Positions 16,194 to 40,994 of a DNA stretch of 64,000 nt are shown piece after piece; within the stretch, counting starts at the first letter, position 1; each line of letters opens with the position of its first letter. The DNA is from an uncultured Pseudomonadales bacterium. Lineage in GTDB: Bacteria; Patescibacteriota; Microgenomatia; UBA1400; UBA1396. The notes beneath the pieces were generated by a model, which did not search any database, had not been told where the DNA came from, and worked only from the letters and a program-made list of their open reading frames with translations. The DNA lies in NCBI GenBank assembly GCA_964511175.1, contig CAZEEI010000002.1, positions 132,382 through 196,381 on the forward strand, in the 5' to 3' direction. Position numbers and translations under genes: made by a program.

Positions 16194-16218
16194 AACAAGT
16201 TACTACAAAAAGCTAGAT

Positions 16219-18048: not shown

Positions 18049-18069
18049 GCGACTGTATTATAGTGGCCT

Positions 18070-23918: not shown

Positions 23919-23923
23919 GGGTC

Positions 23924-24820
23924 TTACGGCTGGTCGCAAATTTCGTTAATAATTTCTTGCCAAGTTCGGAATTGGGTATTAAATTGGCTTTGGGTCCATT
24001 GTGTGTCCAATCCGCCATACTGCGGATAACGCCTGTCATTTCCGGTTTGAGCTAAATATTTGGTCAGCGATCCGGATAGTAATGGTTTATTAACTTGACG
24101 AGCTTTGCGTAGTAAATATTCGGCGATTGCCAGTGGTGTTCCAGTATTGCGGCTAGAAACATGGAAAATACCTGTTTTAGGTTGTTTTAGCAGCCGGAGT
24201 AGGAGGGCGGTAAGTTCGGGAATAAAAGTAAGAGTCAGATATTGGTCGGCAAAAAAGGCGGGAAGACGTTGATTGTCATACCCATTAAGGATTTTTTGCA
24301 AATAATCGGCCTTAACAGAGAAGGATTGCCTTACCGGATTAGAAATACGAACAATACTGTAATGTTCAATTAATTCTTGCACCAAGTGTTCGCTTTGAAT
24401 TTTGCTCCAACCATACCAAGTGACTAAAGCAGGATCAGTTTCTACGGGAGCCGACTCCACGTATGGTCCTGGCGAATCAGCGCGGCCAGAAAAAACAGCA
24501 TCGGTGGAAATATGGATAAAGGGTCCGTTAAATAGTTGGTGAACTTGCGCTAATATTTTAGTGCCCAACACATTTATCCGCCAACACTCTCCTTGCTGGT
24601 TGTGTCTTTCTTGTTCACTTTGGCTAACGTTGGTAAAAGCGGCAAAATGAATTGTTGCTTCGGGTTGAAAATCTTGATAAAGCTCTTGTACTGCGCTTAA
24701 TTGAGTAATATCCATTTCAGCATGGGTTGGTGCCAAAATTTCTAGCCCGGATATATTTTGGGCTGTTTCTTGGAAGTGCGATCCCACTAGTCCGCGTCCA
24801 CCGGTAATTAGGATTCTCAT
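23924..24820 (-). CDS. dTDP-4-dehydrorhamnose reductase-like (RmlD family) SDR
   Basis: MRILITGGRGLVGSHF Rossmann motif and the YGWSK catalytic YxxxK. Confidence 0.7.
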   Translation of the reverse strand: MRILITGGRGLVGSHFQETAQNISGLEILAPTHAEMDITQLSAVQELYQDFQPEATIHFAAFTNVSQSEQERHNQQGECWRINVLGTKILAQVHQLFNGPFIHISTDAVFSGRADSPGPYVESAPVETDPALVTWYGWSKIQSEHLVQELIEHYSIVRISNPVRQSFSVKADYLQKILNGYDNQRLPAFFADQYLTLTFIPELTALLLRLLKQPKTGIFHVSSRNTGTPLAIAEYLLRKARQVNKPLLSGSLTKYLAQTGNDRRYPQYGGLDTQWTQSQFNTQFRTWQEIINEICDQP

Positions 24821-27800
24821 AAGCGAATACTTAGATCTTCTTTTTCCAAAGTTAGGTTTTCATTGTAGTAAGGATCATGTTTGAGTGCCGTACCCCACCG
24901 TTTTTGCAGTTTAGTAACCTCTTTCTTCAGAAGAGAGTCATCACGTTGGCGAGTTTCCGGCCGACCAACCGAAACTGATTCATGGTGATAGAGTACGGCA
25001 AAGGGGGTATAGACATGACGCAATCCTTGCTGACTGAGACGTAAACACAAATCGACATCATTAAAAGCAACCCGGAAGAGGGGATCCATGCCATTAACGG
25101 CGAAATACTTCTTCTTTTCGATCATTAAGCAGGCAGCGGTAACCGCCGACCAATTCCGAATCACATCTTTATTGTTAAAAATGGGCAATTTTCCAGGTTC
25201 ACTGGCGGGAAAAAGTTTTTGTGAATGACCGGCCATACCAGCGATGCCTAAAATAATTCCGCCATGTTGCAATAAACCATTGGGATAAAGCAACTTAGCT
25301 CCTACAGCGCCGATTTCCGGCAGTTGGGCATACTCTAAAAGCGCTTCCAACCAGCGTGGCTCGACTACTTCGGTATCGTTATTGAGGAAAAGAAGAAAAT
25401 CACCTTGGCTTTTTTGGGCGGCATAATTATTAATATCCGAATAATTAAACGGTTTTTGATAATTGAGCACGGTTATGTTTTTTCTTTTTTGAATTCGATC
25501 AAAATAAGCTAATGCTTCCAGTTCGGTACTTTGGTTGTTTACCACGATTATTTCGTAGTTTGGATAATGCGTTTTTTGAGTAATGCTATCGATACATCTT
25601 TTCAAATAATCAGCGCCATCTTTGGTAGGGATAATAATGGAAACTAGAGGTTGTTTGATAATCGTTGGTTGAACGTAAAATAAATCAGGACGAATACCTG
25701 GCAGGAGCTTACCCCTCAGATGACGTCGCTTCATGGCATCCAGCAGCGCCCTCTCGGTACTACTTTGCGCGTAACTCTTGGCGGTGTATACCGTTGCGGT
25801 TGAACCAACAATCTTGCGCCAGTGGTAGAGAACCATGGGAATATGCTGAATATTTTTAGTTTTTTCCGTAAACCGCAGCACAAAATCATAGTCCTGAGAA
25901 CCTTCATAACCAACCCGGAAGCCGCCGATCTTTTTAGCCAAAGCAGTGCGATATACGCCTAAATGGCAGGTGTACATGCTGGAAAGAAAATATTCCGGTG
26001 ACCAATCCGGTTTAAAGAAGACATCGCAGCGCCGGCCCTGCTCATCCAGCTTATCTTCATCGCTGTAAATCATATCAGCTTCAGGGTATTTATTTAGCCA
26101 GACAACCACTGCCGCTAAGGCATGGGGGGCAAGTTCGTCATCATGATCAAGTAAAGCGATGTATTCACCAGTAGCTTGTTGGAGAGCCAGCTGCGTGGCA
26201 GCTGATATCCCTTGATTTTTTTGGTTAAAAGTTACTTGAATATTTTGCTGGTGAAGAGAATGGAGGTAATCAAGAGTACTGGCTTGGGTTGAACCATCAT
26301 CCACAATACAAATTTCCCAGTTATCATAAAGTTGGTTTTTTACCGACTCAATGGATTTATCCAGCCAGCGAATATCAGAATTATAGGTTGGCAATAAAAT
26401 GCTAATTTTGGGACGATACTCTAATTTTTTTAACTGTGATGTTACTAAGGATAGATGTTGTGGTTCATTTTTTTGAATCCACTGCTGGTATTGATAGTTG
26501 TACCAGGCAACTTGATCACCAACGATTCTATTTTCCTGAATTTTCCGGTAAAGACCGGCGGGGCCTTGCTGAATTAGGATCTTAATTACTTTGCGCCCCT
26601 TGTTTACCGCGTTCAGTTTGGTCAGCGCTGACAAAATTGAAAAAGAAACATCTTCGGGGGCAGTTGCCAATGTAAAACCTTGGCCAAATAAAGAAAGTTG
26701 GGGGTTATAGAAAGGATCATTATCAATTAATTTGCCCCAGGTTTCGCGCATATAAAGGATTTCATGCAAATCAATCTTACGGCCAGTTTCCTCGACCTTG
26801 CCAACGCTGATTGATTCATGATGAGTTAAAACTACGTGCGGATCATAGACAATTTGGAAGCCGTGTTGACGTAAACGTAAACAAAAATCGATATCGCTAA
26901 ATAAGACTTTCAAGTCCTCTTCTTGAAAGCCACCAACCTTCTGGTAAAGCGATTTTTTAGTTAAAAAACAAGCTCCCGTTACCGCCGACCAGTTTCTGGT
27001 TAAATCTTTAAAGAAAAAACGGGGATTTTCTTTAATTGCGCTATCAGGCATACCTTTAAAGGGGTGACCAGCCACACCAAGATCGTTGGGATTATTTTTC
27101 ATTCCCAAGAGTACACCGGCATGTTGCAAAGTACCGTTAGGGTAAAGGAGCTTGGGAGCCACGCCGCCAATATCGGCACGCTGCATGTATCCTACTAAAG
27201 GACTGAGCCAATCTTTGGTTATTGGCTCGATATCATTATTTAAGAGCAAAATATATTCACCCCGAGCGTGTTCTACGGCAAAGTTAAAAATTCGGGAGAT
27301 ATTAAAGGGTTGAGTGAAATCTAGGATGGTTATTTGCGGATATTTAGCCAACTCAGCAAAATAAGCCAAAGTTTCCGGTTGTTCACTATTATTGTTAACA
27401 ATGAGAATCTCAAAGTTTTGGTATGGTTGGTTTAGCACGCCATCGATACTTTTACGCAGTAAATCAACGTGATCTTTAGTTGGCACAATAACCGAAACAA
27501 GTCTTGATGTTTTAGTTTGATAACGGAGTGTTAAAGAATTGGCAGATGGCTCTTCTGTAACGTTGACCGTCCAACCACGCCGCTGGAGAGAGATTTCTAA
27601 TGAAGATTTATTGGTGCGATTGGCTTTTTTAATTCGCAATGGCAAAAATTCGCTAAACAGTATTACCGGAAGATGAGCAAAACGGGTGGGATATTCGGAT
27701 AATTTTAAAAGGTATTCGTACAAAAAGGCTTGATTTTTAGAAAAGAAGCCATGCTTGCGGAAAATCTTGGTATTCAAAAAAATAAAATTACCTAAATAGT

Positions 27801-28602
27801 TATTGGCTAAAAAAAGATCTAGAGAAAAATCGGGTTTAAACAGCGGATCATGATGCTGAAAATGGGAATTGATTGTATCTTCATCAAAATATAACACATC
27901 GGTCTGCTCGTGTTCACCTAAATATCTTTGTACTTCTTGTAAGGTTATTGGGAACAAGGCCAATGGGAAAAGTATAAGGCCGACAAATGATCGTTTCTTA
28001 TTTTTTAGTAACCGATTAATAATTTCCGGTATGTCCAGTGAGCTTTTAGCTGAATGCAAAGAAATTTGTAAATTTCTTTTGGTATATTGACGCAGCCTGG
28101 GCCATATCTTAGCTTTAGAGTGAACCACTAAACATAATTCCCAGTAAGGATAGCTTTGTTGTTCTAAAGTAGACAGTGATTGTCTCACTTGTGTCCAATC
28201 AGCATTTTGGTCAATAACACCGATCAACAAAAGGGGGGATGCTAAAGGAGAGATGGCTGACGGCAAAATCCTCTGGGGTGAATTATCTTCCAACCAACGC
28301 TGGTACACATCAGTAGTGAGGAAATGTTTTTGTCCGAAGATTGCTTTTTTAATTAAAATCTTTAACTGAGCCCAAATTTGCCAAACACGAAAAGTTTTAG
28401 CACGTTTAATGCCATCTAAAATATAAGAAAGGTTATTGCTATGCTGACGCCAGATCATTAGTTCGTGCTGTAGGGCATCATTGTCTTTTTTAAGTAATCG
28501 ATTATCGTGTTTCAGTTCACGTATAACAGGGGATAATGCATTGCGTTTAGTGGGCTTGAAAGATTTTGAGAGCATATGACAAATAATTAATAAGGAACTC
28601 AC
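24817..28602 (-). CDS. multidomain glycosyltransferase (three tandem GT2 domains, N-terminal coiled coil), 1261 aa
   Basis: Three GT-A openings (VSVIVPTKDH..., ISILLPTYNSD..., VSIIIPTKDGAD...), each followed by a DXD motif. ATGA overlap with the rmlD-like gene. Confidence 0.85.
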   Translation of the reverse strand: MSSLLIICHMLSKSFKPTKRNALSPVIRELKHDNRLLKKDNDALQHELMIWRQHSNNLSYILDGIKRAKTFRVWQIWAQLKILIKKAIFGQKHFLTTDVYQRWLEDNSPQRILPSAISPLASPLLLIGVIDQNADWTQVRQSLSTLEQQSYPYWELCLVVHSKAKIWPRLRQYTKRNLQISLHSAKSSLDIPEIINRLLKNKKRSFVGLILFPLALFPITLQEVQRYLGEHEQTDVLYFDEDTINSHFQHHDPLFKPDFSLDLFLANNYLGNFIFLNTKIFRKHGFFSKNQAFLYEYLLKLSEYPTRFAHLPVILFSEFLPLRIKKANRTNKSSLEISLQRRGWTVNVTEEPSANSLTLRYQTKTSRLVSVIVPTKDHVDLLRKSIDGVLNQPYQNFEILIVNNNSEQPETLAYFAELAKYPQITILDFTQPFNISRIFNFAVEHARGEYILLLNNDIEPITKDWLSPLVGYMQRADIGGVAPKLLYPNGTLQHAGVLLGMKNNPNDLGVAGHPFKGMPDSAIKENPRFFFKDLTRNWSAVTGACFLTKKSLYQKVGGFQEEDLKVLFSDIDFCLRLRQHGFQIVYDPHVVLTHHESISVGKVEETGRKIDLHEILYMRETWGKLIDNDPFYNPQLSLFGQGFTLATAPEDVSFSILSALTKLNAVNKGRKVIKILIQQGPAGLYRKIQENRIVGDQVAWYNYQYQQWIQKNEPQHLSLVTSQLKKLEYRPKISILLPTYNSDIRWLDKSIESVKNQLYDNWEICIVDDGSTQASTLDYLHSLHQQNIQVTFNQKNQGISAATQLALQQATGEYIALLDHDDELAPHALAAVVVWLNKYPEADMIYSDEDKLDEQGRRCDVFFKPDWSPEYFLSSMYTCHLGVYRTALAKKIGGFRVGYEGSQDYDFVLRFTEKTKNIQHIPMVLYHWRKIVGSTATVYTAKSYAQSSTERALLDAMKRRHLRGKLLPGIRPDLFYVQPTIIKQPLVSIIIPTKDGADYLKRCIDSITQKTHYPNYEIIVVNNQSTELEALAYFDRIQKRKNITVLNYQKPFNYSDINNYAAQKSQGDFLLFLNNDTEVVEPRWLEALLEYAQLPEIGAVGAKLLYPNGLLQHGGIILGIAGMAGHSQKLFPASEPGKLPIFNNKDVIRNWSAVTAACLMIEKKKYFAVNGMDPLFRVAFNDVDLCLRLSQQGLRHVYTPFAVLYHHESVSVGRPETRQRDDSLLKKEVTKLQKRWGTALKHDPYYNENLTLEKEDLSIRL

Positions 28603-28671
28603 CTTCCATATTACATCATTATTTACTCATACCAAGCAGCATGTATAAATATTTGACAAGTAATTGAATAA

Positions 28672-29544
28672 TTGGATGATTATCGATATCCTATATCAGA
28701 TATGTTTGGATTTCACAAAGGCATGGGCCTGCAAGATTATGCTCAATTTCTTTATGAGGTAATTAAGCGGAACACTGAAACTCCCAAACAGTTAGCTATA
28801 GTACAACAGAAATTAGTTGACCTTGACGATAAAATTAATCACAATGCAATACTTTTTAACCAGCTTATTCAAATTGTTCAAAAAATTGAGACTATCTCAA
28901 CAGAATTAACTCAAAAAAGTTGTGTTGAAGATTTTTCTTTTTATCAACATATCTTTTCCTCTAAACTGATTATTTTTGAGAAAAAAATTTCACCCAAGAT
29001 TTTTAACAATATAAATAAGACTATTTTGTGGCTTGGTAATAAATCGATGATCCCAACAGGATTAAAACAACGATCGCGACTTTCCCTAATCAATTTAACT
29101 GAATTACCATCCGCACTTTTTGATCTTAATCAACGGCATATTTCTTATGATATAGTTGTCGTTTCTAATATTCTTCTTACCAATCTTTTATTAACGCATT
29201 CATCCTTATTTATTGTCATGGGAAGGATTACTAAATTAACTTGGATATTAGCCCTACCCGAAGAAAATGAGCTTGATTACCTGGCTAGTTTTTTAACCAA
29301 GCAGATAGATGATACCGAAAGTACGAGTCAAAATATTGCCAAATTACACGCAGCCGGATTTTTTGAGATAGAAGCTATATTTAATGATGGCTCTCGTAAT
29401 ATTACTAGATATGCTCGCGAAAAAGGGTTTTATAATTACCTCTCTTTTCCTACTGAAAAGGTAAATTTATCTGAAAAACGTACGGCTCAGTTTTTAATAG
29501 CCAGAAAAATTCCTAAGTATACAGATTTTGATGAAAAACTATGA
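28672..29544 (+). CDS. hypothetical protein (290 aa)
   Basis: ORF in a very AT-rich block with no recognised motif. Translationally coupled to the next gene (ATGA overlap). Confidence 0.5.
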   Translation: MDDYRYPISDMFGFHKGMGLQDYAQFLYEVIKRNTETPKQLAIVQQKLVDLDDKINHNAILFNQLIQIVQKIETISTELTQKSCVEDFSFYQHIFSSKLIIFEKKISPKIFNNINKTILWLGNKSMIPTGLKQRSRLSLINLTELPSALFDLNQRHISYDIVVVSNILLTNLLLTHSSLFIVMGRITKLTWILALPEENELDYLASFLTKQIDDTESTSQNIAKLHAAGFFEIEAIFNDGSRNITRYAREKGFYNYLSFPTEKVNLSEKRTAQFLIARKIPKYTDFDEKL

Positions 29545-30500
29545 GTGAAAGATTGCCACAACATTGTTTTTTATTATATGGTTATGGTTCCGAATATGTG
29601 CTTCATCCATTGTTTGAGTATATTGTTGACCATCCAGAGCTTGGCGAAGTTATAGAGATTGATGCTCTTCAAGAAAAAGAGTACCTTAGCAAAATAGAAT
29701 TGTTAAAAGGAAAAAAATCGATTATTTTTATTACCTCTGCTCATTTTCTTGAAGATCAACATCTTTTTAATTTTTTAACCAGTTCTCAAGATAGTAAGAT
29801 TATTTCACCTTTAGAAATAATGTCATTCTTACGATCCCAAAAAAATATTTTTGTTGCCCATGATCTGACTATGCCCATATTAACAGAGGAAGAAAATTAT
29901 TTGATGCTTTTTGATTATATTGTCATACCGTACCCACATCAAAAATCAGTAGCTGGTAATCCAGTTTTTATATCAGATGTTGGTTGGATTAAATATGCAG
30001 CCAATTTAAAGTCAACAACTAAGGAAAAAGGAACAATTTTCTTTTTATCTGATTTTCAAATGTATAGAAATTATGGGTTTGAAAGCATGTATAAAAGATT
30101 TAAATTTCTTTTTGATCATGGGATACCAATCAAACTTCCGGTATATATTGATACAAGAATTTTTGAACAAAAATTGCGTGACAGGGGTGTTAAGGTTATT
30201 CCGGCGATTAAAGACTCTGTAAAAGAAATAATTAAACACAAACACATTATTGTTAACGGCATGTCTTCCGTAATTACCGAGGCGGCACTTTTAGGTAAAC
30301 AAGTAACGGTGATTCAGGAGGAATTTTATCCACCCTATTTATATCAAGAGTTATTTGATCGCTTTCCCAATTTACATAAAGTAAGAGAAAGTCACGAGAT
30401 AAAGTTATCTGCTACTAACCCAACTGGAACCAATACGGTGTTGGTACCTTTCCAGCCAAAGAAATTTATCAGTAAAATCCTTGATTTAGAAAAAGAATAA
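29541..30500 (+). CDS. putative CDP-alcohol/polyol-phosphate transferase (TagB/TagF-like GT-B)
   Basis: The C-terminal block IIVNGMSSVITEAALLGKQVTVI resembles the TagF DYSSV...KP motif. The gene context fits (cytidylyltransferase, HAD, ABC exporter). Confidence 0.45.
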   Translation: MSERLPQHCFLLYGYGSEYVLHPLFEYIVDHPELGEVIEIDALQEKEYLSKIELLKGKKSIIFITSAHFLEDQHLFNFLTSSQDSKIISPLEIMSFLRSQKNIFVAHDLTMPILTEEENYLMLFDYIVIPYPHQKSVAGNPVFISDVGWIKYAANLKSTTKEKGTIFFLSDFQMYRNYGFESMYKRFKFLFDHGIPIKLPVYIDTRIFEQKLRDRGVKVIPAIKDSVKEIIKHKHIIVNGMSSVITEAALLGKQVTVIQEEFYPPYLYQELFDRFPNLHKVRESHEIKLSATNPTGTNTVLVPFQPKKFISKILDLEKE

Positions 30501-30501
30501 G

Positions 30502-31092
30502 ATGAAATATCTTTTTGATCTCGATGGTACGGTAACTAATCAAGAAATTTTACCCTTGATAGCCCGTGATCTTGGTTTGGAAAATGAAATGGCGGAGTTG
30601 ACGAGAAAAACTATGCAAGGTGAAATACCTTTTGAACATAGTTTTCGTATACGTGTAGAAATGTTGGCGCGTGTTCCTATAAATAGAGTACAAGAAATTG
30701 TATCGAGGGTATCTATTAGTAAGCCAATTCTAAATTTTTTGACCAACCATGTTGAGACAAGCGCCATTGTTACCGGCAATCTTGACATTTGGATTCAGCC
30801 ACTAAGGGAAAAAATTCCAGTTTGTTTTTATACTTCCAAAGCCAAATATGAGGGTAATACTTTGCTGGGTATCAAATCAATTCTCAACAAAGGTCTCATT
30901 GGCAAGCAGTATGATTTAGAAGAAGTGGTTGTTGCTGTGGGAGACGGCAACAATGATTTGGAAATGTTGGAGAATGCCGCTATTGCGATAGCCTATGGAG
31001 GTGTACATACGCCAGCGGAAGCACTTTTATCGATAGCAGATTATGCTATTTATCAGGATGAAAAATTATGTCAATTTCTAACACAGTTGTAA
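30502..31092 (+). CDS. HAD-superfamily phosphatase (HAD-IB / SerB-like)
   Basis: Motif I DLDGTVT, a Thr/Ser motif II, and motif IV GDGNNDLEM. Confidence 0.75.
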   Translation: MKYLFDLDGTVTNQEILPLIARDLGLENEMAELTRKTMQGEIPFEHSFRIRVEMLARVPINRVQEIVSRVSISKPILNFLTNHVETSAIVTGNLDIWIQPLREKIPVCFYTSKAKYEGNTLLGIKSILNKGLIGKQYDLEEVVVAVGDGNNDLEMLENAAIAIAYGGVHTPAEALLSIADYAIYQDEKLCQFLTQL

Positions 31093-31730
31093 TAAATACG
31101 GCCGGCGTGGGAAGTCGTTTAGGATTTGGCTATCCCAAATCCCTGTTGGAGATAGGTGGAAAACCCCTAATTGTTCACCATTTAAATAATTTAATGGATT
31201 GTGATGATGTTAGGATAGTGGTTGGTTTTCAAGCTCAAAAGATAATCGACATTGTTTTACCAATCAGGCCAGACGCTATTTTTGTTTTTAATCACCAATA
31301 TCAGGAAACAAATACCCTACATAGTTTAGCGTTGGGTTCTAAATTTGCCTCCCAATATGTTATTTCATTGGATGGGGACTTATTAATTAGGCCCAAGGAT
31401 ATTAGAAAAGTTATTCAATATCCCGGTGAGGTGGTTTGTTATACACCAAGCCACACCCAAGAGCCTGTTTTTGCTAAAATTGAAAAAAAGAAAAATCAGG
31501 ATATGATAACTGCCTTTACCCGTCGCAAGGTTTTACCCAATGAGTGGACCGGCGTGGTTAAAATTCATTCTAAGAAGTTGGGACAGAATTACGGTAAGGA
31601 GCATGTTTATCAAGCTTTGAAAAAATATTTACCAATAAACGCGTTCCCCATTTCTTGTGTTGAAATTGATACACCGCAAGATTATGAGAATGCGTTACGT
31701 TGGGCAGCAGAAAAATTGGGGGTAGTATGA
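31068..31730 (+). CDS. sugar/alcohol-phosphate nucleotidyl(cytidylyl)transferase (LicC/IspD-like)
   Basis: N-terminal NTP-transferase signature VINTAGVGSRLG...PKSLLEIGGKPLI. Confidence 0.75.
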   Translation: MSISNTVVINTAGVGSRLGFGYPKSLLEIGGKPLIVHHLNNLMDCDDVRIVVGFQAQKIIDIVLPIRPDAIFVFNHQYQETNTLHSLALGSKFASQYVISLDGDLLIRPKDIRKVIQYPGEVVCYTPSHTQEPVFAKIEKKKNQDMITAFTRRKVLPNEWTGVVKIHSKKLGQNYGKEHVYQALKKYLPINAFPISCVEIDTPQDYENALRWAAEKLGVV

Positions 31731-32368
31731 CAACATTCTCACGTGACGATATAGATAAATTTTGGCGAAAACAAACAACAGTCAAAGATCCGCGTGTAGC
31801 GACTCATTTTAAAAAAGACGATGCCCATCTTTTTGATATCACTTTGGTTAGAAACTATATCAAACCAAATTCGCGCGTTCTAGATTTGGGTTGTGGCACT
31901 TGTGTTATTGCTAATGAAATTTCGGCAGAAGTTGCAAAAATAGTTGCGGTGGATAAATATAATGAATTTTTGTCCTATTGTCGAACCAGTAATAAAATAG
32001 TACCAATAGAAGCGGATTTGCTTAGTTACGATCCGGGGAAAAACAATTTTGATCTAATTTTATTTTTTGGCATAATGAATTATTTTAGTGATCAAGATGT
32101 AAAGGGTATGTATGCACGGGCTTCTCAAGCTTTAAAAAAGGATGGTGTTTTAATAGTGAAGCATGCTAGCGGTATTAATGGTGACGTAGAAGTTGATAAG
32201 TATTCTAAACAGATAGGGGATGTTTACCGCGCCATATACAGAGGAATTGACCACGACAAATCGCTTTTGCAACAGTTCTTTTCTCAAATTACTATTGAGG
32301 ATATTTACCCACCAAGATTGAATCGATGGGATAACACTCATTACTACGCGTATATTTGCAAAAAATAA
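31727..32368 (+). CDS. class I SAM-dependent methyltransferase
   Basis: Motif I VLDLGCGTCVIA. ATGA overlap with the upstream gene. Confidence 0.75.
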   Translation: MTTFSRDDIDKFWRKQTTVKDPRVATHFKKDDAHLFDITLVRNYIKPNSRVLDLGCGTCVIANEISAEVAKIVAVDKYNEFLSYCRTSNKIVPIEADLLSYDPGKNNFDLILFFGIMNYFSDQDVKGMYARASQALKKDGVLIVKHASGINGDVEVDKYSKQIGDVYRAIYRGIDHDKSLLQQFFSQITIEDIYPPRLNRWDNTHYYAYICKK

Positions 32369-33954: not shown

Positions 33955-34743
33955 ATGCCCCACCAAATCGTTGCTTCGGTAGTAGTGCCCAATGTGAAGT
34001 TGGCATTACTAACCAAATTTTTGTTGCACCACGCTGCTGCTTGGGATTGGTCTCGGCACGAACTGATTATCGTCACCTCACCAGAGAACGCCGCGCAATT
34101 GAAAAATGTTTATCCAAAAGCTAAATGGTTAACTGTCAAGCAGAATCGTGGTTTTGCTCAAACCGTTAATGCCGGCTGGCGGCTTGCCAAGGGCGAATGG
34201 CTGGGTACCGTTAATGATGACACCGAGCTACCGCCGGGGTGGATTCAGAGGTTAATCGTCAGGGCTAAACCTGATACCGGTTCACTTAGTCCGGTGATAA
34301 TCGATCCCAGTGGTAAGGTTGAGTCCGCCGGTGTTAATTACTTACCCATCGGTCGAGCTATACCGGTGCTGGCAATACCGCCTCAACTGGATACCACTGA
34401 TACTTGCAATGCCGCCGCTATTCTTTTCCGCAAGCAGGCGCTGGATCAGGTGGGCTGGTTTGATGGGCACTTTGGTTCCTATTTGGAGGATGTTGATTTG
34501 GGTTTACGGCTAAAACGGGCCAGTTGGCAGAATTTGGTGGTACCGACAGTGCGGGTTGTCCACTATGGCCAGCAAACTTCGGGCGACCACCCGGTATATA
34601 AAGCTTGGCTGGATGTAAAAAATTGGTGGTTGGTAGTATTAAAAAATACTACGCCATCAACCTGGCTAAACAGCGGGATTGGTATTTTATTGGAGCGAGG
34701 ACGCAATGTTTCCGGTTTGATTAAAACGCTGAAGTGGCACTAG
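33955..34743 (+). CDS. glycosyltransferase family 2
   Basis: ASVVVPN... and NDDTELPPGW DXD-type region. The start is taken at the ATG at 33955 to avoid overlap with the permease gene. Confidence 0.7.
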   Translation: MPHQIVASVVVPNVKLALLTKFLLHHAAAWDWSRHELIIVTSPENAAQLKNVYPKAKWLTVKQNRGFAQTVNAGWRLAKGEWLGTVNDDTELPPGWIQRLIVRAKPDTGSLSPVIIDPSGKVESAGVNYLPIGRAIPVLAIPPQLDTTDTCNAAAILFRKQALDQVGWFDGHFGSYLEDVDLGLRLKRASWQNLVVPTVRVVHYGQQTSGDHPVYKAWLDVKNWWLVVLKNTTPSTWLNSGIGILLERGRNVSGLIKTLKWH

Positions 34744-35198
34744 CGATGCTGCATTTGTGCTTTTTGCAAATTTCGCACTAAGTGAGGCCAAGCATCTTTA
34801 TCGATAGGATAACTTTCCACCGCAAAGGGAACGTAGTAGGGTGGATTCTCCATGGTTTGTTTTTGGTCAACTAGGTGGGGGGAAATAATTTCAGGTGCAG
34901 CATAGGGTAAAAAGGCCCAAGCTAAACTACCATTTGCTGCCAAAAGATGAGCGTTCGGTTCAGGTTTGTGGCGTTTTAATTTTTGCAGCTCGGCCGCATT
35001 CATTTCTTTTCCAAAACAAACATAAGCAAAAGTACCCTCCAGGTTTGGAACCAAATGGGTGTGGCAATGGTGTTTTAGACAATAAAGAGGCCACTCTTTT
35101 CCAGCATCTGCCTCGGGATCATCATTGACACCAACGATATCAGCTATTTCTAACGGTTGTTCTGATCGATGCCTGGATTTTTTCTTATTTTTTCCCAT
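34740..35198 (-). CDS. hypothetical protein (152 aa), basic N-terminus, Cys/His-rich segment
   Basis: ORF immediately downstream of tRNA-Val; contains YCLKHHCHTH. Confidence 0.5.
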   Translation of the reverse strand: MGKNKKKSRHRSEQPLEIADIVGVNDDPEADAGKEWPLYCLKHHCHTHLVPNLEGTFAYVCFGKEMNAAELQKLKRHKPEPNAHLLAANGSLAWAFLPYAAPEIISPHLVDQKQTMENPPYYVPFAVESYPIDKDAWPHLVRNLQKAQMQHR

Positions 35199-35237
35199 AT
35201 TGGGGGGAGTCTACTATGATATGGCCAGTTGCTCAAG

Positions 35238-35311
35238 TGGCTGATGCAGGACTCGAACCTGCGACCTCACGAATGTGAATCGTGCGCTCTAACCAACTGA
35301 GCTAATCAGCC
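35238..35311 (-). tRNA. tRNA-Val (anticodon CAC)
   Basis: Cloverleaf on the minus strand: acceptor GGCTGAT/ATCAGCC, anticodon stem CACGA/TCGTG, loop TTCACAT, T-loop TTCGAGT. No encoded CCA. Confidence 0.9.
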
Positions 35312-35364
35312 GAGACAACGTATATTGTACTACACCAGAAGAAAATGATACTCTAATTCCAGAT

Positions 35365-37545
35365 ATGTCTACCCCGAGATCACCTGATGTGCCAACTCCT
35401 GAATCCGAGGTAGAGGAAAAATCACGGAAAGAAAATTTGGTTGACACACCCTTAAAGTTGTTGCGTGTACTTTATCGGTTATTAGAATCAGAGCATCCCT
35501 CCCAAGACATAAGCGGCGAGGCTTTAGAAGGAACACGTCATGTGGGGAGAGATAAAGTTTCGGTTTGGACTTTGGCGTTTTCTAATAAAGCCAATGATTT
35601 TTTTTCTAAACATAATGCTATAGAAGATGTACTATTAGTAAACTTGCAGTGGTTTAATCGTATTTTCCGTCCGCAAAGAAAAAATATTTTTGGCGAGGCC
35701 GATCCTGGTTTTGCTTCCCGCGTATTCAGGTCGCACATGAATTCCGGTTTTTTCACACACTCGGAGATTGCCACCTATTTACAGCGAGCGGGAGAAGAAG
35801 AAAAGCGCGGTTTATTGGATTCGGCCTATTTTATTGATCCCGATGAACTTTCTCTTGGAAAACCACCTAATGCTGACCCAGAATTGATTAGCAATAGAGG
35901 CTGTTTTAATTTTCAGGAGCACCTACCATCAATACCTGACTTATCTTTACCAAATTTAGTAGAACGAGTAATTACCGAAAATTTGTTAAAACAATGTTTA
36001 ATTATTTTGGAAAAAACACGTGGTATTAGGCAATCCGATGGAACAATCAAGTGGGATGGGGTGGGGCCACTACCACTGCCCATAGGTGAAGTCAAAATTG
36101 CCGTACGTATAGGCAATGTGGAACATCCGTTAACAATTAACATTGATGGAAAACAATTACGATCCGTATTGGATCATATTTTGCAAAATGATGACCTAAC
36201 AATATATCAGGATGATCTTTTGTTTGTACGCAAACATATATTAGCTCAAGTATCGCAATTATTAATATCGGGTAAAACAAAAGGGTCACGGGTTATTACT
36301 CCCAACGAAGTAAAGCAGGCTTATAGCCGGGATGCCTACAAGGATATAGAACAAAAACCCGTTAATGCTTTTTCGATCAATATATTGCCAGAAAAAATTA
36401 TGGAAGGAGGGGCGACGGTTAGACCAGCCACTAGTTTAACCAATAGCTGGCAGAATTGGTCAACTACCGATTTATATATTAATCAAGGTGGGCAACTCAT
36501 CGCTCGTGGGCAAAATTTTGCGCATCCCATGATTGATGGGCGAGAAGCGGAGATATTTTTTACTAATGCCGACCCCGGATTGGCTCTTATTCAAAAACAT
36601 CTTAATGAATCAGATAAACAGGTCAATGCTGTGGCCAATCCAGCGGTAACAATTCGGGAAGTAACTAATTTTGCCGAATCGGAGACGCTCCGAAATTTGC
36701 AGGAAAATGTGCCGGATATATTTGCGGAAACAGTTATTCCCAGTGAAATAGTGACTGAATTACGCAGGAGACATAAAGAATTAATTAATCATTTATTAAG
36801 TAACCCCGCTCTCCTACGCGATAAAATAATGCCATTTGTGTGGCAGAGACAATATCTGCGTACGCTCCTACTAAAACCAGAAGAAAATAGAGAGAAAATA
36901 AGCTCTGAGATACGGCAAATCTTTTCCTTTAATACCTTTCTGAGCTTAACGCTGGCAAGCTTACTGAATCTTCAGGGGGAATTACTAGTCTTAAACGCTT
37001 ATGGGAGAGTAAACCCGGCTTTAATGGGCATTCCCAGAGTGTTGGAAGAATATTTAAGACGAGGGGGAGAACTCTCTGAACAAGAGCTTGGTGAGGTTGC
37101 CATTAGTATATTGATGAGCGCATCAATAGTACGAGAAGAAAAAAAGTTGGCTCAAGACAAAATGTATCCTGGCACAACCGCTTTCCGTCTCTCCACCGTG
37201 TCGGGTCCAAACGAGAAACTGCTCGATTTTCTATCGAGTATAGTGATTCCTTGGAAACAACAGGCGTTACAAGAAAATAAGGCACAAATATCTTTTCTTT
37301 CAGGGGTCAAGGATCTTATTTTCCAGGGCGCTTTAGCCAAGCGCTACCCGGCTACGGCTGCTGTCCACGAATATAAAGGGCCTAACGGAAGCAGTTTCCG
37401 CGTAAACGTTAGGTCGCGCCGAGAAGATCAAGTCCGCACACCTCTACCCTCACTTTCTGCGGAAAAAATCCAAGCCCGCTGCGAAGCCCTTTTTGCAATT
37501 TTAGAAAATTACTTTAATACTTCCAGCAATTCCGCCACTTCTTGA
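35365..37545 (+). CDS. large hypothetical protein (726 aa), no signal peptide, acidic N-terminus
   Basis: Long uninterrupted ORF with no motifs I recognise; adjacent to tRNA-Val. Confidence 0.6.
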   Translation: MSTPRSPDVPTPESEVEEKSRKENLVDTPLKLLRVLYRLLESEHPSQDISGEALEGTRHVGRDKVSVWTLAFSNKANDFFSKHNAIEDVLLVNLQWFNRIFRPQRKNIFGEADPGFASRVFRSHMNSGFFTHSEIATYLQRAGEEEKRGLLDSAYFIDPDELSLGKPPNADPELISNRGCFNFQEHLPSIPDLSLPNLVERVITENLLKQCLIILEKTRGIRQSDGTIKWDGVGPLPLPIGEVKIAVRIGNVEHPLTINIDGKQLRSVLDHILQNDDLTIYQDDLLFVRKHILAQVSQLLISGKTKGSRVITPNEVKQAYSRDAYKDIEQKPVNAFSINILPEKIMEGGATVRPATSLTNSWQNWSTTDLYINQGGQLIARGQNFAHPMIDGREAEIFFTNADPGLALIQKHLNESDKQVNAVANPAVTIREVTNFAESETLRNLQENVPDIFAETVIPSEIVTELRRRHKELINHLLSNPALLRDKIMPFVWQRQYLRTLLLKPEENREKISSEIRQIFSFNTFLSLTLASLLNLQGELLVLNAYGRVNPALMGIPRVLEEYLRRGGELSEQELGEVAISILMSASIVREEKKLAQDKMYPGTTAFRLSTVSGPNEKLLDFLSSIVIPWKQQALQENKAQISFLSGVKDLIFQGALAKRYPATAAVHEYKGPNGSSFRVNVRSRREDQVRTPLPSLSAEKIQARCEALFAILENYFNTSSNSATS

Positions 37546-38594
37546 GCGCTGTTAGTCTGCACCAAAGCGGTGCGTAAGCTAGACGCGTTGGGAAAACCCT
37601 TGATATACCAGGCTAAGTGTTTGCGCATGGCAAAAAATGAGTCGCCAGGAAAATCTCGCTCGTATTGTTGGGCATGTTCTAGTGCCACATGAGCACGGTC
37701 GGCTAAGGTTGGTTCTTGAGCTAGGGGTTGTCCATCCCGCCAGCGCACTATTTGGTCTAGCGTCCACGGATTACCAAAAGTAGCACGGCCAATCAAAACA
37801 CCGTCGACGTTAGTTTCAGCTACTCTTTGGGCTATATCATCTGGTGTAGATAAATCGCCATTACCCAAAATGAGCGTGCCACTACCTTGTGCCAACTTTA
37901 CCGCTTCACCAATAGCGGACCAATCCGCTCGACCGCCGTAACCCTGTTTGAGAGTACGTCCATGAATCGAGATTGCGGCCGGCTGGATTTCTAACAGATA
38001 GGGCAACCACTGGGCAATGATAGGTTGATCGTAGCCAATTCTAGTTTTAACCGAAACCGGCCGCGGCGTTCGTTGCTGGTAAACAACGGGCAGAGTTTGG
38101 TGACGTTTTTCAATCAGATCGCGCGTTTTTTGTTTTAGTTCCGGAAAGTCACGGAGGGATTTGCCATCCACCCAATCTTGTACACCGGCTTGAGCCGCAC
38201 GGATAATTTCCTGGGCCAGTTTTGGTGTTTGAATCAGGGCTGCGCCAGCTCCATGTTGACTAACATTTTTAGCCGGGCAACCCATGTTGAGATCGATGCC
38301 ATCAAAACCTAAATAACAGAGAATAAAAGCGGTGGTGCGGAAGGCAGCTGGTTCTTTGCCAAAAATTTGCGCCACAATGGGGCGCTGAGTTTCGTCAAAA
38401 ATGAGACCGCGGAAAAGCTTGAGAGCATTGTGGGCTACGCCTTCGGCGGCAATAAATTCGGTAAAAATAACGTCTGGCCGACCATATTTTTTAGTGATGT
38501 AGCGAAATGGTTGATCGGTAATACCATCCATGGGACTTAAACCGATAATTGGTTGTGGTAGATTGTTCCAAAAACCGGGAAAAATCTTCGACAT
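37509..38594 (-). CDS. dusB: tRNA-dihydrouridine synthase
   Basis: DGITDQPFR, NMGCP (catalytic Cys), and FMN-binding TIM-barrel motifs. Confidence 0.85.
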   Translation of the reverse strand: MSKIFPGFWNNLPQPIIGLSPMDGITDQPFRYITKKYGRPDVIFTEFIAAEGVAHNALKLFRGLIFDETQRPIVAQIFGKEPAAFRTTAFILCYLGFDGIDLNMGCPAKNVSQHGAGAALIQTPKLAQEIIRAAQAGVQDWVDGKSLRDFPELKQKTRDLIEKRHQTLPVVYQQRTPRPVSVKTRIGYDQPIIAQWLPYLLEIQPAAISIHGRTLKQGYGGRADWSAIGEAVKLAQGSGTLILGNGDLSTPDDIAQRVAETNVDGVLIGRATFGNPWTLDQIVRWRDGQPLAQEPTLADRAHVALEHAQQYERDFPGDSFFAMRKHLAWYIKGFPNASSLRTALVQTNSAQEVAELLEVLK

Positions 38595-38625
38595 AAAGGG
38601 GAATTATACTAGAGTTACTTAATAA

Positions 38626-38655
38626 TTGACAAATCCGTTAAATTGTTTATATAAT
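38626..38655 (+). promoter_or_regulatory. sigma70-type promoter (TTGACA, 18-nt spacer, TATAAT)
   Basis: Exact consensus -35 at 38626-31 and exact -10 at 38650-55. Confidence 0.55.
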
Positions 38656-38660
38656 CGCGA

Positions 38661-38750
38661 AGTACTCGTGAGGGACCTCCCGAAACCGGATAGGTACTTG
38701 TACCAAAGCTGGAAAAGCGAGTATAGCAGAAAAGCCCTTAGGGCTTTTTT
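38661..38750 (+). ncRNA. candidate small structured RNA (~90 nt), class unknown
   Basis: Bounded by the consensus promoter and an intrinsic terminator. Internal helices: GTACTCG/CGAGTAT closing stem, GGGacctCCC hairpin, GGTActtgTACC hairpin. Confidence 0.4.
38731..38750. terminator. intrinsic (rho-independent) terminator, likely bidirectional
   Basis: aaaGCCCttaGGGCtttttt; the minus strand also has a T-rich tract after the hairpin. It overlaps the stop of the 38738 gene. Confidence 0.6.
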
Positions 38751-39157
38751 GTTGTTTCTTTACTCTTGATCGAAAAATAATGCGGTCTGGAATGATTCAG
38801 CTGACGAACTATTACTTGAATACAACGTTTTTTTCCATCAACAACTACCGCGCAGCTCACTTCCCAATAAATAGCTTGGCGAGTATTCCCTCGGTATTTG
38901 ATCAATCGCGTCTCAACCCTAGTTGGCGGTGCCGACGCATTTTCGATAACCTCTTGAGCAAACAAGAATAAACTCAAGCGTTTATTTATTTCCAAACGGT
39001 TTCTTCGATGACCATTACCGTCGAAGAAAAGGTGATTCCAACCATGGCGGTTGAAGACTATTTTGCATTGAATTGCCGGGCAAAAGATAGGTCTAGTTTT
39101 GAGGTTTTTGTAAACGTCTTTGACTTTTTTGATAGATAACGCAGAGGTGTCTGACAT
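38738..39157 (-). CDS. hypothetical protein (139 aa)
   Basis: Basic, Cys-containing ORF with no recognised motifs; upstream of it lies a secreted-protein gene. Confidence 0.4.
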   Translation of the reverse strand: MSDTSALSIKKVKDVYKNLKTRPIFCPAIQCKIVFNRHGWNHLFFDGNGHRRNRLEINKRLSLFLFAQEVIENASAPPTRVETRLIKYRGNTRQAIYWEVSCAVVVDGKKRCIQVIVRQLNHSRPHYFSIKSKETTKKP

Positions 39158-39176: not shown

Positions 39177-40994
39177 TTACGGGAATTTTGTTAACAATAT
39201 TTGCCTAAAATGTTGTCTTAGACCCATAGCCAGCCAATTAGTTAACCATCCGCCAGAGACACTCTGGTTCAGCATTAATTCGAAACCGCGCTGAACAGAC
39301 TGTGCATCAGCTAAAATAGCAGTGTTTAAAAGTTTGTCTTGATACTCCAGAAGCAAATCGACTAAAGCTGGATGGCGCAGTCGATCTGATAGATAAAGCT
39401 CGATTAACTGCGGACGGCTGAGTAAACTCATTGATGTGTTGCTGGTGGTGATCTGCGGCTGATCGGCTGTTAAATCAACATTCCAGCTGAGCGGCGTCGT
39501 CTCGGACGAAATGAGATAGGAAATAACACTGACTTTGCCGGTAGCAGTGTAGGCTGCCAGCCAAATAGGCGAAAACGCTTGAGTGTCGGAAAAAATAAGC
39601 TCTACCTTTGCCGGTGGCTTAGCTAAATCGTAGAGAAAATAGGGTGTTTTAGTGGCTAAAGTTGTTTCCACTAGGCGTACAGGTGTTAATTGGTTGCCAG
39701 TCGTATCTTGAAAAACAACTTGCGTACTTAACGGTGTAATAACCGTAATCCCGCTTAAGTCAGTATGGCTGGGCACAAACAGCCGCGCCGAAGTAAAAGT
39801 ATTAGCATAGCTGTCTAAACGTAAGCGAGTATAAAAAGGATCATGAATATTAAAGTCAAGCCTACCTGGCCCAAAACCATAGGCGGTAATAAAATGTCCT
39901 GGCTCGGCCAGAATTACCGGTTGGTTATTTTGGATTTGTTGGCGTAGCCAAGCCAATTGGTTAGTGGGATTGGCGTAAGTCATTTCGAGAGTTGGCACTT
40001 CGGTATGACTTTGGGAAAATAAATAACTCAGACGACTGAGGGCACGCCAGTTAACGCTGCCATCTGGTAAATAGCCGTCTACTTCTTGTTGCAGCCAAAG
40101 GTTTAGAGAACCGGGATCAAGCGTGGTTTCGTCCGGTAAAGCGTCAATGCCGTAGTAACGCAACACCATTACCGCACTAACCAACGCACAACCCCAGTAT
40201 TTAATCAGTGGACTTTGTGGCGCCCACAGAGTGGCTGTATCGTAAATTTGACTGCGCCAGGGGTCATCGGTTTGTTTCAACAACAGCACTTCTAGATTTT
40301 TAGTTTGAGCCAATGATTCAACGCGAAAATCGTCAAAGCGCACATAAGAATGACTTACTGCACCCACACTTGCGGCTAAACCCGGCTTGCCCTGTTCCAA
40401 TTGAGGATCACTGGGTGATTCGAAAATATCTAGAACCAACTGGTCGTCCAGCCATAATTGGAGGTTTCGGGCTGATAAATCATATTCCCAAAATACGTTA
40501 TACCAGTGGTTCTCTTGGAAATTGAAAGCTCTGGTTCCATTTTGCCAGACATAACTTTGTCCCTTAATCATTTTTTCGGCCTGAATACCGGTTCCAAAAA
40601 GATGGATTCCCAAACGATTGGCACTATCTTGCCAACGAATTAGCAGATTACGATCCATATTACGATTAGATATAAACAACCGCAGGGAAACTCGTTGGAA
40701 GCGCTGATCGGCGACGGCGTTAGTAAGCGGCACAATTTCTGTAGCACAGGGAATACTACCATCGATGTTAATTTCCACTGCTCCGTTCACTACTTGCCAC
40801 TGTGGTCTGCCGCTGGGGGAAACACAGGTATAGTGAGGATCGTCCAAGGCGGCATTGCGCACTTCGGTCCACTGCCACTGGCTGGCAAAATCATCCGTCC
40901 ACAGGACTTCCGCCGCCCGTACCGGTCGAATTAAAATCAACACCAAAAGCAAGCCTATTAGGATGGCTCGATTTTTCATAATCTTAGTTTGCAA
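39177..40994 (-). CDS. secreted protein with an N-terminal lectin/ConA-like region and a putative papain-fold (C39-like) cysteine peptidase domain
   Basis: Signal peptide MKNRAILIGLLLVLILIRPVRA. The YWGCALVSAVMVLRYYG block resembles the C39/C39_2 catalytic Cys region. Confidence 0.55.
   Translation of the reverse strand: MQTKIMKNRAILIGLLLVLILIRPVRAAEVLWTDDFASQWQWTEVRNAALDDPHYTCVSPSGRPQWQVVNGAVEINIDGSIPCATEIVPLTNAVADQRFQRVSLRLFISNRNMDRNLLIRWQDSANRLGIHLFGTGIQAEKMIKGQSYVWQNGTRAFNFQENHWYNVFWEYDLSARNLQLWLDDQLVLDIFESPSDPQLEQGKPGLAASVGAVSHSYVRFDDFRVESLAQTKNLEVLLLKQTDDPWRSQIYDTATLWAPQSPLIKYWGCALVSAVMVLRYYGIDALPDETTLDPGSLNLWLQQEVDGYLPDGSVNWRALSRLSYLFSQSHTEVPTLEMTYANPTNQLAWLRQQIQNNQPVILAEPGHFITAYGFGPGRLDFNIHDPFYTRLRLDSYANTFTSARLFVPSHTDLSGITVITPLSTQVVFQDTTGNQLTPVRLVETTLATKTPYFLYDLAKPPAKVELIFSDTQAFSPIWLAAYTATGKVSVISYLISSETTPLSWNVDLTADQPQITTSNTSMSLLSRPQLIELYLSDRLRHPALVDLLLEYQDKLLNTAILADAQSVQRGFELMLNQSVSGGWLTNWLAMGLRQHFRQILLTKFP

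What the first reader, a model, noticed from the sequence alone, without database searches (positions are those of the whole stretch)
34740..37545. tRNA-Val-flanking unknowns: a 152-aa Cys/His-rich protein and a 726-aa protein with no recognisable domain
A very long ORF (726 aa) with an acidic disordered N-terminus, no signal peptide or TM segment, and no motif I recognise sits next to tRNA-Val. On the other side of the tRNA is a small basic protein with a HHCH cluster. These interrupt the glycan locus and precede convergent dusB. A large orphan protein at a tRNA site is a candidate for a novel effector, toxin or accessory factor.
Basis: inference. Interest (0 to 1): 0.5.

Follow-up and report, generated by a model that had tools for sequence, protein, structure and literature searches.

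The report
Orphan proteins flanking tRNA-Val in a CPR bacterium
Two real genes with no recognisable relatives flank a valine tRNA in an uncultured Patescibacteria genome; the large one is an old, fast-evolving gene kept at the same spot in one other genome, not a mobile toxin island, and its function remains unknown.

Summary
A 152-aa ORF (34740-35198, -), tRNA-Val(CAC) (35237-35311, -) and a 726-aa ORF (35365-37545, +) are where stated, and the 726-aa ORF converges on and overlaps a Dus gene.

The genome is Patescibacteria (CPR). The 726-aa protein matches nothing in Pfam, NCBIfam, PHROGs, PADLOC, PDB, phage records or plasmid records. An exhaustive HMMER scan of 1.84 billion representatives found one relative, P0003 (730 aa, about 27% identity end to end, E 1e-41).

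P0003 lies in the same slot of a related genome: tRNA-Val, 730 aa, Dus, C39-like protein, then the same glycan block. Its neighbours are 35-59% identical to the window's (MgsA fragment 70%). In each genome the gene's G+C matches the surrounding DNA sampled (42 vs 44%; 58 vs 57%).

In 23 of 35 related loci that have tRNA-Val(CAC) near Dus, the tRNA directly follows Dus. The gene therefore fills an old insertion slot that holds unrelated genes in other lineages. I found no att repeat and no integrase, secretion signal or toxin domain.

The 152-aa ORF looks coding but is a true singleton, and it is neither basic overall nor Cys-rich.

AlphaFold failed (pLDDT 33), so function is undetermined. This is an ordinary lineage-restricted CPR orphan of modest interest.

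The parts
35365..37545 (+). 726-aa orphan protein gene. It is one of a two-member family (with P0003, 730 aa). It is predicted soluble, mixed alpha/beta, with a non-conserved acidic P/E/S-rich N-terminal tail.
   Evidence: ORF. No family, PDB, PHROGs or PADLOC hit. Only relative is P0003, E 1.4e-41, 27% identity, collinear over residues 14-717. P0003 is in the same slot in L082. Codon usage is coding in frame and no TM segment is apparent. No internal repeats and no paralogue in the window.
35237..35311 (-). tRNA-Val (anticodon CAC). It is on the same strand as Dus and is the conserved downstream partner of Dus in Patescibacteria.
   Evidence: ARAGORN. Rfam RF00005, 73.5 bits. tRNA-Val(cac) follows Dus on the same strand within 160 bp in 23 of 35 related loci that have it nearby.
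34740..35198 (-). 152-aa singleton ORF on the 3' side of tRNA-Val. It has a basic N-terminal tip and a KHHCHTH cluster (C40, C45, C61 plus His 43, 44, 46, 48). It is probably coding, and its function is unknown.
   Evidence: ORF. Self-hit only in 5.8 billion clusters. No Pfam, NCBIfam, PHROGs, PADLOC or PDB hit. No counterpart in L082 or the 80 related loci. Best codon-usage score in its own frame. An identical copy occurs in a second sample, SRR8925769.
37509..38594 (-). Dus-family tRNA dihydrouridine synthase. It is the conserved anchor gene, and its 3' end overlaps the 3' end of the 726-aa gene by 37 nt.
   Evidence: PF01207, E 9e-59. Best NCBIfam model is DusB at 222 bits, below the cut-off of 293. 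It is 45-60% identical to Dus in the 80 related loci.
35312..35364 (.). 53-nt divergent spacer between the tRNA-Val 5' end and the ATG of the 726-aa gene. Any promoter for the 726-aa gene must lie here or inside or beyond the tRNA.
   Evidence: Sequence. No sigma70-like match in this spacer.

Best explanation
The 726-aa ORF is a real, taxonomically restricted orphan gene of a small Patescibacteria (CPR) clade.

The ancestral arrangement in these bacteria is C39-like secreted protein, then Dus, then tRNA-Val(CAC), with the tRNA directly after Dus. In the ancestor of this genome and of the L082 genome, a gene of about 2.2 kb came to occupy the Dus/tRNA-Val gap on the opposite strand. It has since been inherited vertically as a single-gene unit, diverging faster than all its neighbours while keeping its length and end-to-end collinearity.

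The product is a soluble, probably cytoplasmic, multi-domain alpha/beta protein. It carries none of the common catalytic or nucleotide-binding signatures I tested.

My inference on function has low confidence. I read it as a non-enzymatic adaptor or scaffold, or a specificity factor tied to the lineage's cell-envelope/glycan neighbourhood, rather than a mobile toxin or effector.

The 152-aa ORF on the other side of the tRNA is an unrelated, genome-specific singleton at the edge of the synteny block. The 3' flank of tRNA-Val has different content in every relative examined.

Shown: gene reality, orphan status, orthology and synteny, slot variability, absence of mobile-element marks. Inferred: timing of the insertion, cytoplasmic location, non-enzymatic role.
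For: Gene reality and orphan status.

Orthologue in the same slot, in the same orientation and with the same convergent overlap with Dus.

Identities between window and L082:
- 726/730-aa protein 25-27%
- Dus 59%
- flippase 49%
- GT2 genes 35-47%
- Wzy 38%
- C39-like protein 35%
- MgsA fragment 70%

The gene's G+C matches the sampled DNA around it in both genomes: 41.7 vs 44.3% (64-kb window) and 57.6 vs 56.9% (22-kb locus L082). Amino-acid composition shifts the same way, with A/R up and I/K/N down in the GC-rich genome.

Dus and tRNA-Val are directly adjacent in 23 of 35 related loci.

The Dus NJ tree groups window, L082, L002 and L003. All four have an insert in the gap, but L002 carries a LysM membrane protein and L003 an unrelated 172-aa ORF.

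The A1 profile finds nothing in six-frame translations of the 80 related loci.

No att-like repeat, no flanking repeats, no integrase among the neighbours.

No Walker A, HExxH, GxSxG, CxxC, DxD or PD-(D/E)xK motif is conserved in both orthologues.
Against: Function is not established by any positive evidence. AlphaFold2 failed with one and with two sequences (pLDDT 34 and 33), so no fold comparison is valid. The Foldseek run on that model gave only chance helical matches.

Only two members are known, so conservation cannot be separated from shared ancestry and dN/dS cannot be estimated.

The Dus tree places the window closer to L002 and L003 than to L082. Vertical descent then requires loss or replacement in L002/L003, or the tree is unresolved (no support values were computed). 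Independent acquisition at the same slot is not excluded.

'Non-enzymatic' rests only on the absence of textbook motifs. The link to the glycan locus is positional only, because the gene is monocistronic and lies between a tRNA and Dus.
Confidence: 0.6

Rival explanations
1. The 726-aa protein is a novel single-gene defence or biological-conflict protein (anti-phage or anti-competitor) sitting in a variable, tRNA-adjacent hot spot.
For: The slot between Dus and tRNA-Val holds different genes in different lineages, including conflict-type domains such as DUF3990 (L026) and SRAP (L007). The protein evolves faster than all its neighbours. In the window a weak LPD3-like (polyvalent-protein domain) ORF with atypical codon usage lies just beyond Dus.
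Against: No PADLOC hit for either orthologue. No nuclease, NTPase, protease or sensor motif is conserved. It is stably syntenic across genomes with 59% Dus identity and fully ameliorated composition, which is unlike typical defence-island turnover. There are no partner genes.
Confidence: 0.12
2. It is a secreted or contact-delivered effector used by the episymbiotic CPR cell on its host.
For: It is a large, fast-evolving, lineage-restricted protein in an organism whose phylum is generally episymbiotic (established knowledge). It lies next to a conserved secreted C39-like protein and to envelope glycan genes.
Against: No signal peptide, no TM segment and no recognisable secretion or toxin domain. 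No immunity-like small ORF is conserved next to it: the 152-aa and 71-aa neighbours are unrelated and lie across the tRNA. No secretion-system genes were seen among the scanned neighbours.
Confidence: 0.08
3. It is an extremely diverged member of a known housekeeping family, for example an RNA/tRNA-associated or envelope-biosynthesis protein, that sequence methods cannot recognise.
For: CPR proteins are often highly diverged. The gene sits between Dus and a tRNA and inside a glycan locus in both genomes. Length and collinearity are conserved.
Against: An exhaustive HMMER scan of 1.84 billion representatives found only one relative. The two-sequence profile finds nothing in PDB or the 80 related loci, and Pfam scans of both orthologues and their fragments find nothing. 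It is absent from 80 related loci, including the two nearest by Dus, so it is not a universally needed function.
Confidence: 0.12
4. The 152-aa ORF is not a gene but a chance open frame in the spacer between tRNA-Val and the convergent GT2 gene.
For: No homologue in 5.8 billion clusters, in the 80 related loci or in the syntenic locus. No Shine-Dalgarno-like sequence is visible upstream (sequence). The first 50 codons score about 0 in the codon model.
Against: It is the best of six frames in the codon-usage model. Codons 51-152 score 0.23-0.27, within the range of confident genes. A 459-nt open frame fills almost the entire 493-nt gap. It was called as a gene in two independent assemblies with identical sequence.
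Confidence: 0.3

Closest known systems
[quoted passage not shown] Patescibacteria, as catalogued by AGNOSTOS (PMC9132574: 54,343 lineage-specific clusters, 283,874 genes)
   Same: No detectable homology outside a very narrow lineage. Found in MAGs only. Real coding sequence. Function unknown.
   Different: It is unusually long (726 aa) for an orphan. It has a demonstrable syntenic orthologue at only about 27% identity. I did not check whether this family is in that catalogue.
tRNA-associated genomic islands / integrative elements
   Same: Lies directly next to a tRNA gene. The site is variable among relatives.
   Different: The gene is on the 5' side of the tRNA. There is no integrase, no att duplication of the tRNA 3' end and no compositional anomaly. 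Orthologous synteny is conserved between distant genomes.
Pfam PF22200 ExsA_N (only sub-threshold Pfam hit)
   Same: Residues 378-481 align weakly to it (E 0.094, 13.5 bits).
   Different: The score is far below the gathering score of 27. The orthologue P0003 does not hit it. I treat it as chance.

Membership tests
tRNA-associated integrative genomic island | Direct repeat (att) duplicating the 3' end of the tRNA at the far end of the island | tested here: not met
   The 21-nt 3' end of tRNA-Val occurs once in the 64-kb window, even allowing 3 mismatches. No flanking direct repeats longer than chance in 33.5-41.5 kb.
tRNA-associated integrative genomic island | Integrase/recombinase gene adjacent to the tRNA | tested here: not met
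   Pfam scans of 26 ORFs between 22.5 and 50.3 kb show glycan, ABC, Dus, MgsA, FKBP and enolase genes and no integrase or transposase.
tRNA-associated integrative genomic island | Composition deviating from the host genome; absence from relatives without an orthologue in place | tested here: not met
   Gene G+C is 41.7% against 44.3% for the window. The orthologue is 57.6% against 56.9% for its 22-kb locus. A syntenic orthologue is present in L082. However, the slot content differs in L002 and L003.
Known anti-phage defence systems (PADLOC-DB v2) | Match to a defence-protein HMM | tested here: not met
   No hit at E <= 1 for the 726-aa protein, P0003, or the 152-aa, 139-aa and 605-aa proteins.
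Secreted toxins / polymorphic effectors | N-terminal signal or trafficking domain plus a C-terminal toxin domain, usually with an adjacent immunity gene | tested here: not met
   No hydrophobic N-terminus or TM segment. No Pfam toxin or trafficking domain. No conserved small downstream ORF. Dedicated signal-peptide predictors were not available.
Any Pfam / NCBIfam / PHROG family or solved structure (726-aa protein) | Score above the curated threshold, or E < 0.001 | tested here: not met
   The best Pfam hit, ExsA_N, scores 13.5 bits against a cut-off of 27. NCBIfam gives none. The best PHROGs hit has E 0.14. PDB gives none with either the sequence or the profile.
DusB (TIGR00737 equivalog), for the convergent neighbour | Score above the equivalog cut-off (293.3 bits) | tested here: inconclusive
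   It scores 222.4 bits, which is the best model but below the cut-off. The Pfam Dus domain is met clearly (199.5 bits against 20.4).
Zinc-binding small protein (152-aa ORF) | A recognised Cys/His ligand pattern matching a known zinc-finger family | tested here: not met
   Only 3 Cys are present, with C-x4-C-x15-C spacing and neighbouring His residues. No Pfam, NCBIfam or PDB match. Actual metal binding is not testable here.

The most novel reading that the evidence does not exclude
The 726/730-aa pair founds a protein family with a new fold and a new function specific to one Patescibacteria clade. One example would be a host-interaction or conflict protein recruited into the ancient Dus/tRNA-Val gap, a site that repeatedly captures new genes in this phylum.
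Probability: 0.12. Interest if true: 0.55.

Novelty: new member of a known kind. Interest (0 to 1): 0.25.

Why it matters
In itself it matters little. Patescibacteria genomes carry tens of thousands of lineage-specific unknown gene clusters (PMC9132574), and this is one more.

Two points go slightly beyond that. First, this is a 726-aa protein with exactly one detectable relative among about 15 billion predicted proteins, yet it is conserved in place across genomes as far apart as 59% Dus identity. It is therefore a maintained, functional orphan and a reasonable target for structure determination. Second, the Dus/tRNA-Val junction emerges as a recurrent gene-capture slot in Patescibacteria. 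That slot could be mined systematically for lineage-specific accessory genes.

Tried and rejected
Family and sequence searches that found nothing for the 726-aa protein:
- Pfam, NCBIfam, PHROGs and PADLOC with the whole protein, with its orthologue, and (Pfam only) with five domain-sized fragments of each. Only chance-level hits appeared.
- PDB sequence search with the protein and with the two-sequence profile: nothing at E <= 10.
- Word-indexed search of 5.8 billion clusters with the protein and with the profile: self only.
- Metagenome-contig scans with the profile and with P0003 and a viral-contig scan: nothing.
- tblastn against phage and plasmid records: no match at E <= 1.
- Profile search of six-frame translations of 80 related loci: best E 1.6.

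Structure:
- AlphaFold2 single-sequence and two-sequence runs gave pLDDT 34 and 33, which is unusable.
- A Foldseek-PDB run on that model was made only for the record. It gave 0 hits at E <= 0.001 and TM <= 0.13.

Ideas considered and dropped:
- The break of the Logan contigs inside the tRNA was considered as a sign of strain variation. I rejected it because both contigs end within the conserved tRNA sequence, which is the expected assembly-graph branching.
- The slot occupants in L002 and L003 were considered as degraded remnants of the 726-aa gene. I rejected this because L002's is a LysM membrane protein, L003's has no similarity, and the A1 profile scores neither.
- No paper mentions run SRR8925802.
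Full report
**1. What is there**

The stated features exist. A 152-aa ORF lies at 34740-35198 (-) and a 726-aa ORF at 35365-37545 (+). tRNA-Val(CAC) lies at 35237-35311 (-) (Rfam tRNA 73.5 bits).

The 726-aa ORF is divergent from the tRNA, with a 53-nt spacer. It converges on a Dus-family gene (37509-38594, -; PF01207, E 9e-59), and their 3' ends overlap by 37 nt. The best NCBIfam model for that gene is DusB, but at 222 bits it is below the cut-off of 293.

Beyond Dus lie two more genes on the - strand. One is a 139-aa ORF with a sub-threshold LPD3 match. The other is a 605-aa protein with a weak Peptidase_C39_2 match.

Glycan genes flank the whole group. On the left are GT2 genes, an ABC-2 exporter, a methyltransferase, a cytidylyltransferase, an RmlD-like gene and a 1261-aa triple GT2. 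On the right are GT2, flippase, GT2, GT2 and Wzy, followed by tRNA-Lys, MgsA, FKBP and enolase.

**2. Are the ORFs genes?**

I trained a codon-usage log-odds model on 25 confident genes of the window. It scores the 726-aa ORF at 0.137 in frame, against -0.34 to -0.87 for the other five frames. It scores the 152-aa ORF at 0.112 in frame, also the best of six. The existence of an orthologue proves the large one (section 4).

- The small protein has pI 7.15, with 3 Cys and 10 His. It is His-enriched with a KHHCHTH cluster and a basic N-terminal tip, but it is neither basic overall nor Cys-rich.
- The large protein has pI 6.3 and no TM-grade hydrophobic stretch (maximum KD19 1.57).
- Its N-terminal tail is acidic and P/E/S-rich, and is not conserved in the orthologue.

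The large protein has no internal repeats. Neither unknown has a paralogue in the window.

**3. Organism**

The Dus protein finds its best matches at 45-60% identity, most of them in Patescibacteria/CPR MAGs labelled Pacebacteria, Paceibacterota or 'Patescibacteria group'. The window's own genome is not among the GTDB species representatives. It is on record in NCBI (a 201-kb contig) and in Logan assemblies of SRR8925802 and SRR8925769.

**4. Homology**

The 726-aa protein matches nothing above threshold in Pfam, NCBIfam, PHROGs, PADLOC or PDB. It has no tblastn match in phage or plasmid records. The word-indexed search of 5.8 billion clusters returned only the protein itself.

The exhaustive HMMER scan of 1.84 billion cluster representatives returned exactly one relative. 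This is P0003, 730 aa, E 1.4e-41, 27% identity, aligned over residues 14-717 against 15-716. BLASTP gives 25% and MAFFT 28%.

A two-sequence profile (A1) found nothing more in any of the following:
- the 5.8-billion-cluster collection
- JGI metagenome contigs (a scan with P0003 alone also found nothing)
- IMG/VR viral contigs
- PDB

Pfam scans of both orthologues, whole and as five domain-sized fragments each, also found nothing.

The most conserved blocks are W-x-G-x2-PLPLP-x-G-x3-I-x2-RIGN-x-E (230-253), RPA-x-S-x-TNS (353-361), AH-x-M-x-DG-x-E (386-394), NA-x-G-x2-NPALM (544-554), GELS-x-QE (568-574) and EK-x-LA-x-D-x2-YPG-x-TA-x-RLS (592-610). None of the textbook motifs I tested is conserved in both proteins. 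Those tested include Walker A, HExxH, GxSxG, CxxC, DxD and PD-(D/E)xK.

**5. Genomic context of the only relative**

P0003 is encoded in Logan contigs of up to 86 kb (L082, L083), and the gene order is the same as in the window. The order is tRNA-Val(CAC) (-), 730 aa (+), Dus (-), C39-like protein, GT2, flippase, GT2, GT2, Wzy, then tRNA-Lys and MgsA. The 730-aa gene and Dus are convergent with a 71-nt overlap.

Protein identities between the window and L082:

| Protein | Identity |
|---|---|
| MgsA (fragment) | 70% |
| Dus | 59% |
| flippase | 49% |
| GT2 | 47% |
| GT2 | 44% |
| Wzy | 38% |
| GT2 | 35% |
| C39-like | 35% |
| 726/730-aa protein | 25-27% |

The two sampled regions differ strongly in G+C (44% for the window, 57% for L082). 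The gene follows its surroundings in each: 41.7% and 57.6%. Its amino-acid composition shifts accordingly, with A/R against I/K/N. This is the signature of an old resident gene evolving quickly under selection for a conserved architecture.

The 152-aa and 139-aa ORFs have no counterpart in L082. A 71-aa unrelated ORF follows the tRNA there, and Dus abuts the C39-like gene.

**6. The slot**

Among the 80 Dus loci fetched, 34 also encode a homologue of the 605-aa C39-like protein immediately upstream of Dus. Thirty-five have tRNA-Val(CAC) nearby. In 23 of those, the tRNA follows Dus on the same strand within 30-154 bp. The ancestral state is therefore C39-like, Dus, tRNA-Val.

In the window the gap is 2,197 bp and is filled by the 726-aa gene. 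In L082 it is 2,215 bp.

An NJ tree of Dus groups window, L082, L002 and L003 (no support values). All four share the collinear Wzy-to-Dus block (MgsA is also matched in L003 and, as a fragment, in L082). All four have an insert in the gap, but the contents differ. L002 carries a 257-aa LysM membrane protein and L003 an unrelated 172-aa ORF. Elsewhere the gap holds an SRAP peptidase (L007), a DUF3990 protein (L026) or other unknowns (L012, L023).

The A1 profile detects no remnant of the family in six-frame translations of any of these loci (best E 1.6).

So the Dus/tRNA-Val junction is a recurrent gene-capture site, and the 3' flank of the tRNA is where synteny ends in every genome compared.

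**7. Mobile-element test**

- The 3' end of the tRNA is not duplicated anywhere in the window, even with 3 mismatches.
- No meaningful direct or inverted repeats bracket the genes.
- No integrase or transposase is among the 26 scanned neighbours.
- There are no viral, phage or plasmid relatives.
- The 726-aa gene lies on the 5' side of the tRNA, not the 3' side where integrative elements usually insert (established knowledge).
- Logan contigs break inside the tRNA on both sides. I attribute this to graph branching at a conserved tRNA sequence, not to variation.

**8. Structure**

AlphaFold2 gave mean pLDDT 34.3 with a single sequence and 33.3 with two sequences. Only the secondary-structure tendency can be read: an alpha-helical N-terminal third, beta-hairpins around residues 241-260 and 336-384, and a long helical C-terminal half.

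A Foldseek-PDB run on this model, made only for the record, gave no hit at E <= 0.001 and TM <= 0.13. No fold assignment is possible.

**9. Interpretation**

Firmly supported (confidence about 0.6 for the package): the 726-aa ORF is a maintained, vertically inherited, fast-evolving, clade-restricted orphan in an ancient insertion slot. It is not a mobile island cargo.

The mechanism is inferred only. The protein is soluble, monocistronic and without the catalytic signatures tested. I favour a non-enzymatic adaptor or scaffold, or a specificity role connected to the lineage's envelope biology.

The rivals cannot be excluded without a structure or an experiment:
- a novel defence or conflict protein (0.12)
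- a host-directed effector (0.08)
- an unrecognisably diverged housekeeping protein (0.12)

The 152-aa ORF is probably coding, with a 0.3 chance that it is not. It is a genuine singleton.

**10. Novelty and interest**

Lineage-specific unknowns are the norm in Patescibacteria: 54,343 clusters and 283,874 genes in PMC9132574. This one is notable only for its size, its extreme rarity (two members among about 15 billion proteins) and its demonstrable positional orthology. Interest is 0.25. The most novel reading not excluded is a new fold and function specific to this clade, with probability about 0.12.

Noticed in passing
window 38603-38755: Back-to-back sigma70-like promoters lie in the Dus/139-aa intergenic region. 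The + strand has TTGACA-18-TATAAT (12/12) at 38626-38655. The - strand has TTGTCA-18-TATAAT (11/12) at 38632-38603, facing Dus. A 15-bp-stem terminator follows at 38723-38755. The + strand pair would give a transcript of about 95 nt, antisense to the 3' end of the 139-aa ORF. Rfam gives only a chance-level hit (STnc350, E 0.31).
   Followed up: partly
window 38738-39157 (-): A 139-aa basic ORF (pI 10.3) has a sub-threshold LPD3 match (PF18798, 24.8 bits against 27), a domain of phage and conjugative 'polyvalent' proteins. Its codon usage is atypical (-0.166). The 2-sequence tblastn and phmmer searches found no counterpart in L082 or the 80 related loci, and in L082 Dus directly abuts the C39-like gene. 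It is probably a separate recent insertion.
   Followed up: partly
window 39177-40994 (-); loci L002-L051: The 605-aa protein has an N-terminal hydrophobic segment and a weak Peptidase_C39_2 domain. It is conserved immediately upstream of Dus in 34 of the related loci, most of them Patescibacteria. There it forms a C39-like/Dus/tRNA-Val triad of unknown significance.
   Followed up: partly
L002 11139-11912, L003 11146-11664, L007 11065-11757, L012 11129-12235, L023 11079-11597, L026 11107-11877: The Dus/tRNA-Val gap holds unrelated genes in different Patescibacteria lineages: a LysM membrane protein, an SRAP peptidase, a DUF3990 protein and three unknowns. This points to a recurrent gene-capture slot.
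   Followed up: partly
window 16000-32000: The left-hand glycan block has clearly lower G+C (32-43%) than the rest of the window (44-50%). It includes a 1261-aa protein with three GT2 domains (24817-28602) and two ORFs with no Pfam hit (28672-29544, 29541-30500). This may be a horizontally exchanged glycan cassette.
   Followed up: no
L082 7901-9553 (-) and 7188-7895 (+): In the orthologous locus the 3' flank of tRNA-Val carries a 550-aa protein rich in hydrophobic segments (apparently polytopic membrane) and a 235-aa protein. Neither has a tblastn relative in the window or in the 80 related loci. Pfam gave no hit for the 550-aa protein; the 235-aa one was not scanned here (none on record). 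This is further lineage-specific content at the same junction.
   Followed up: partly
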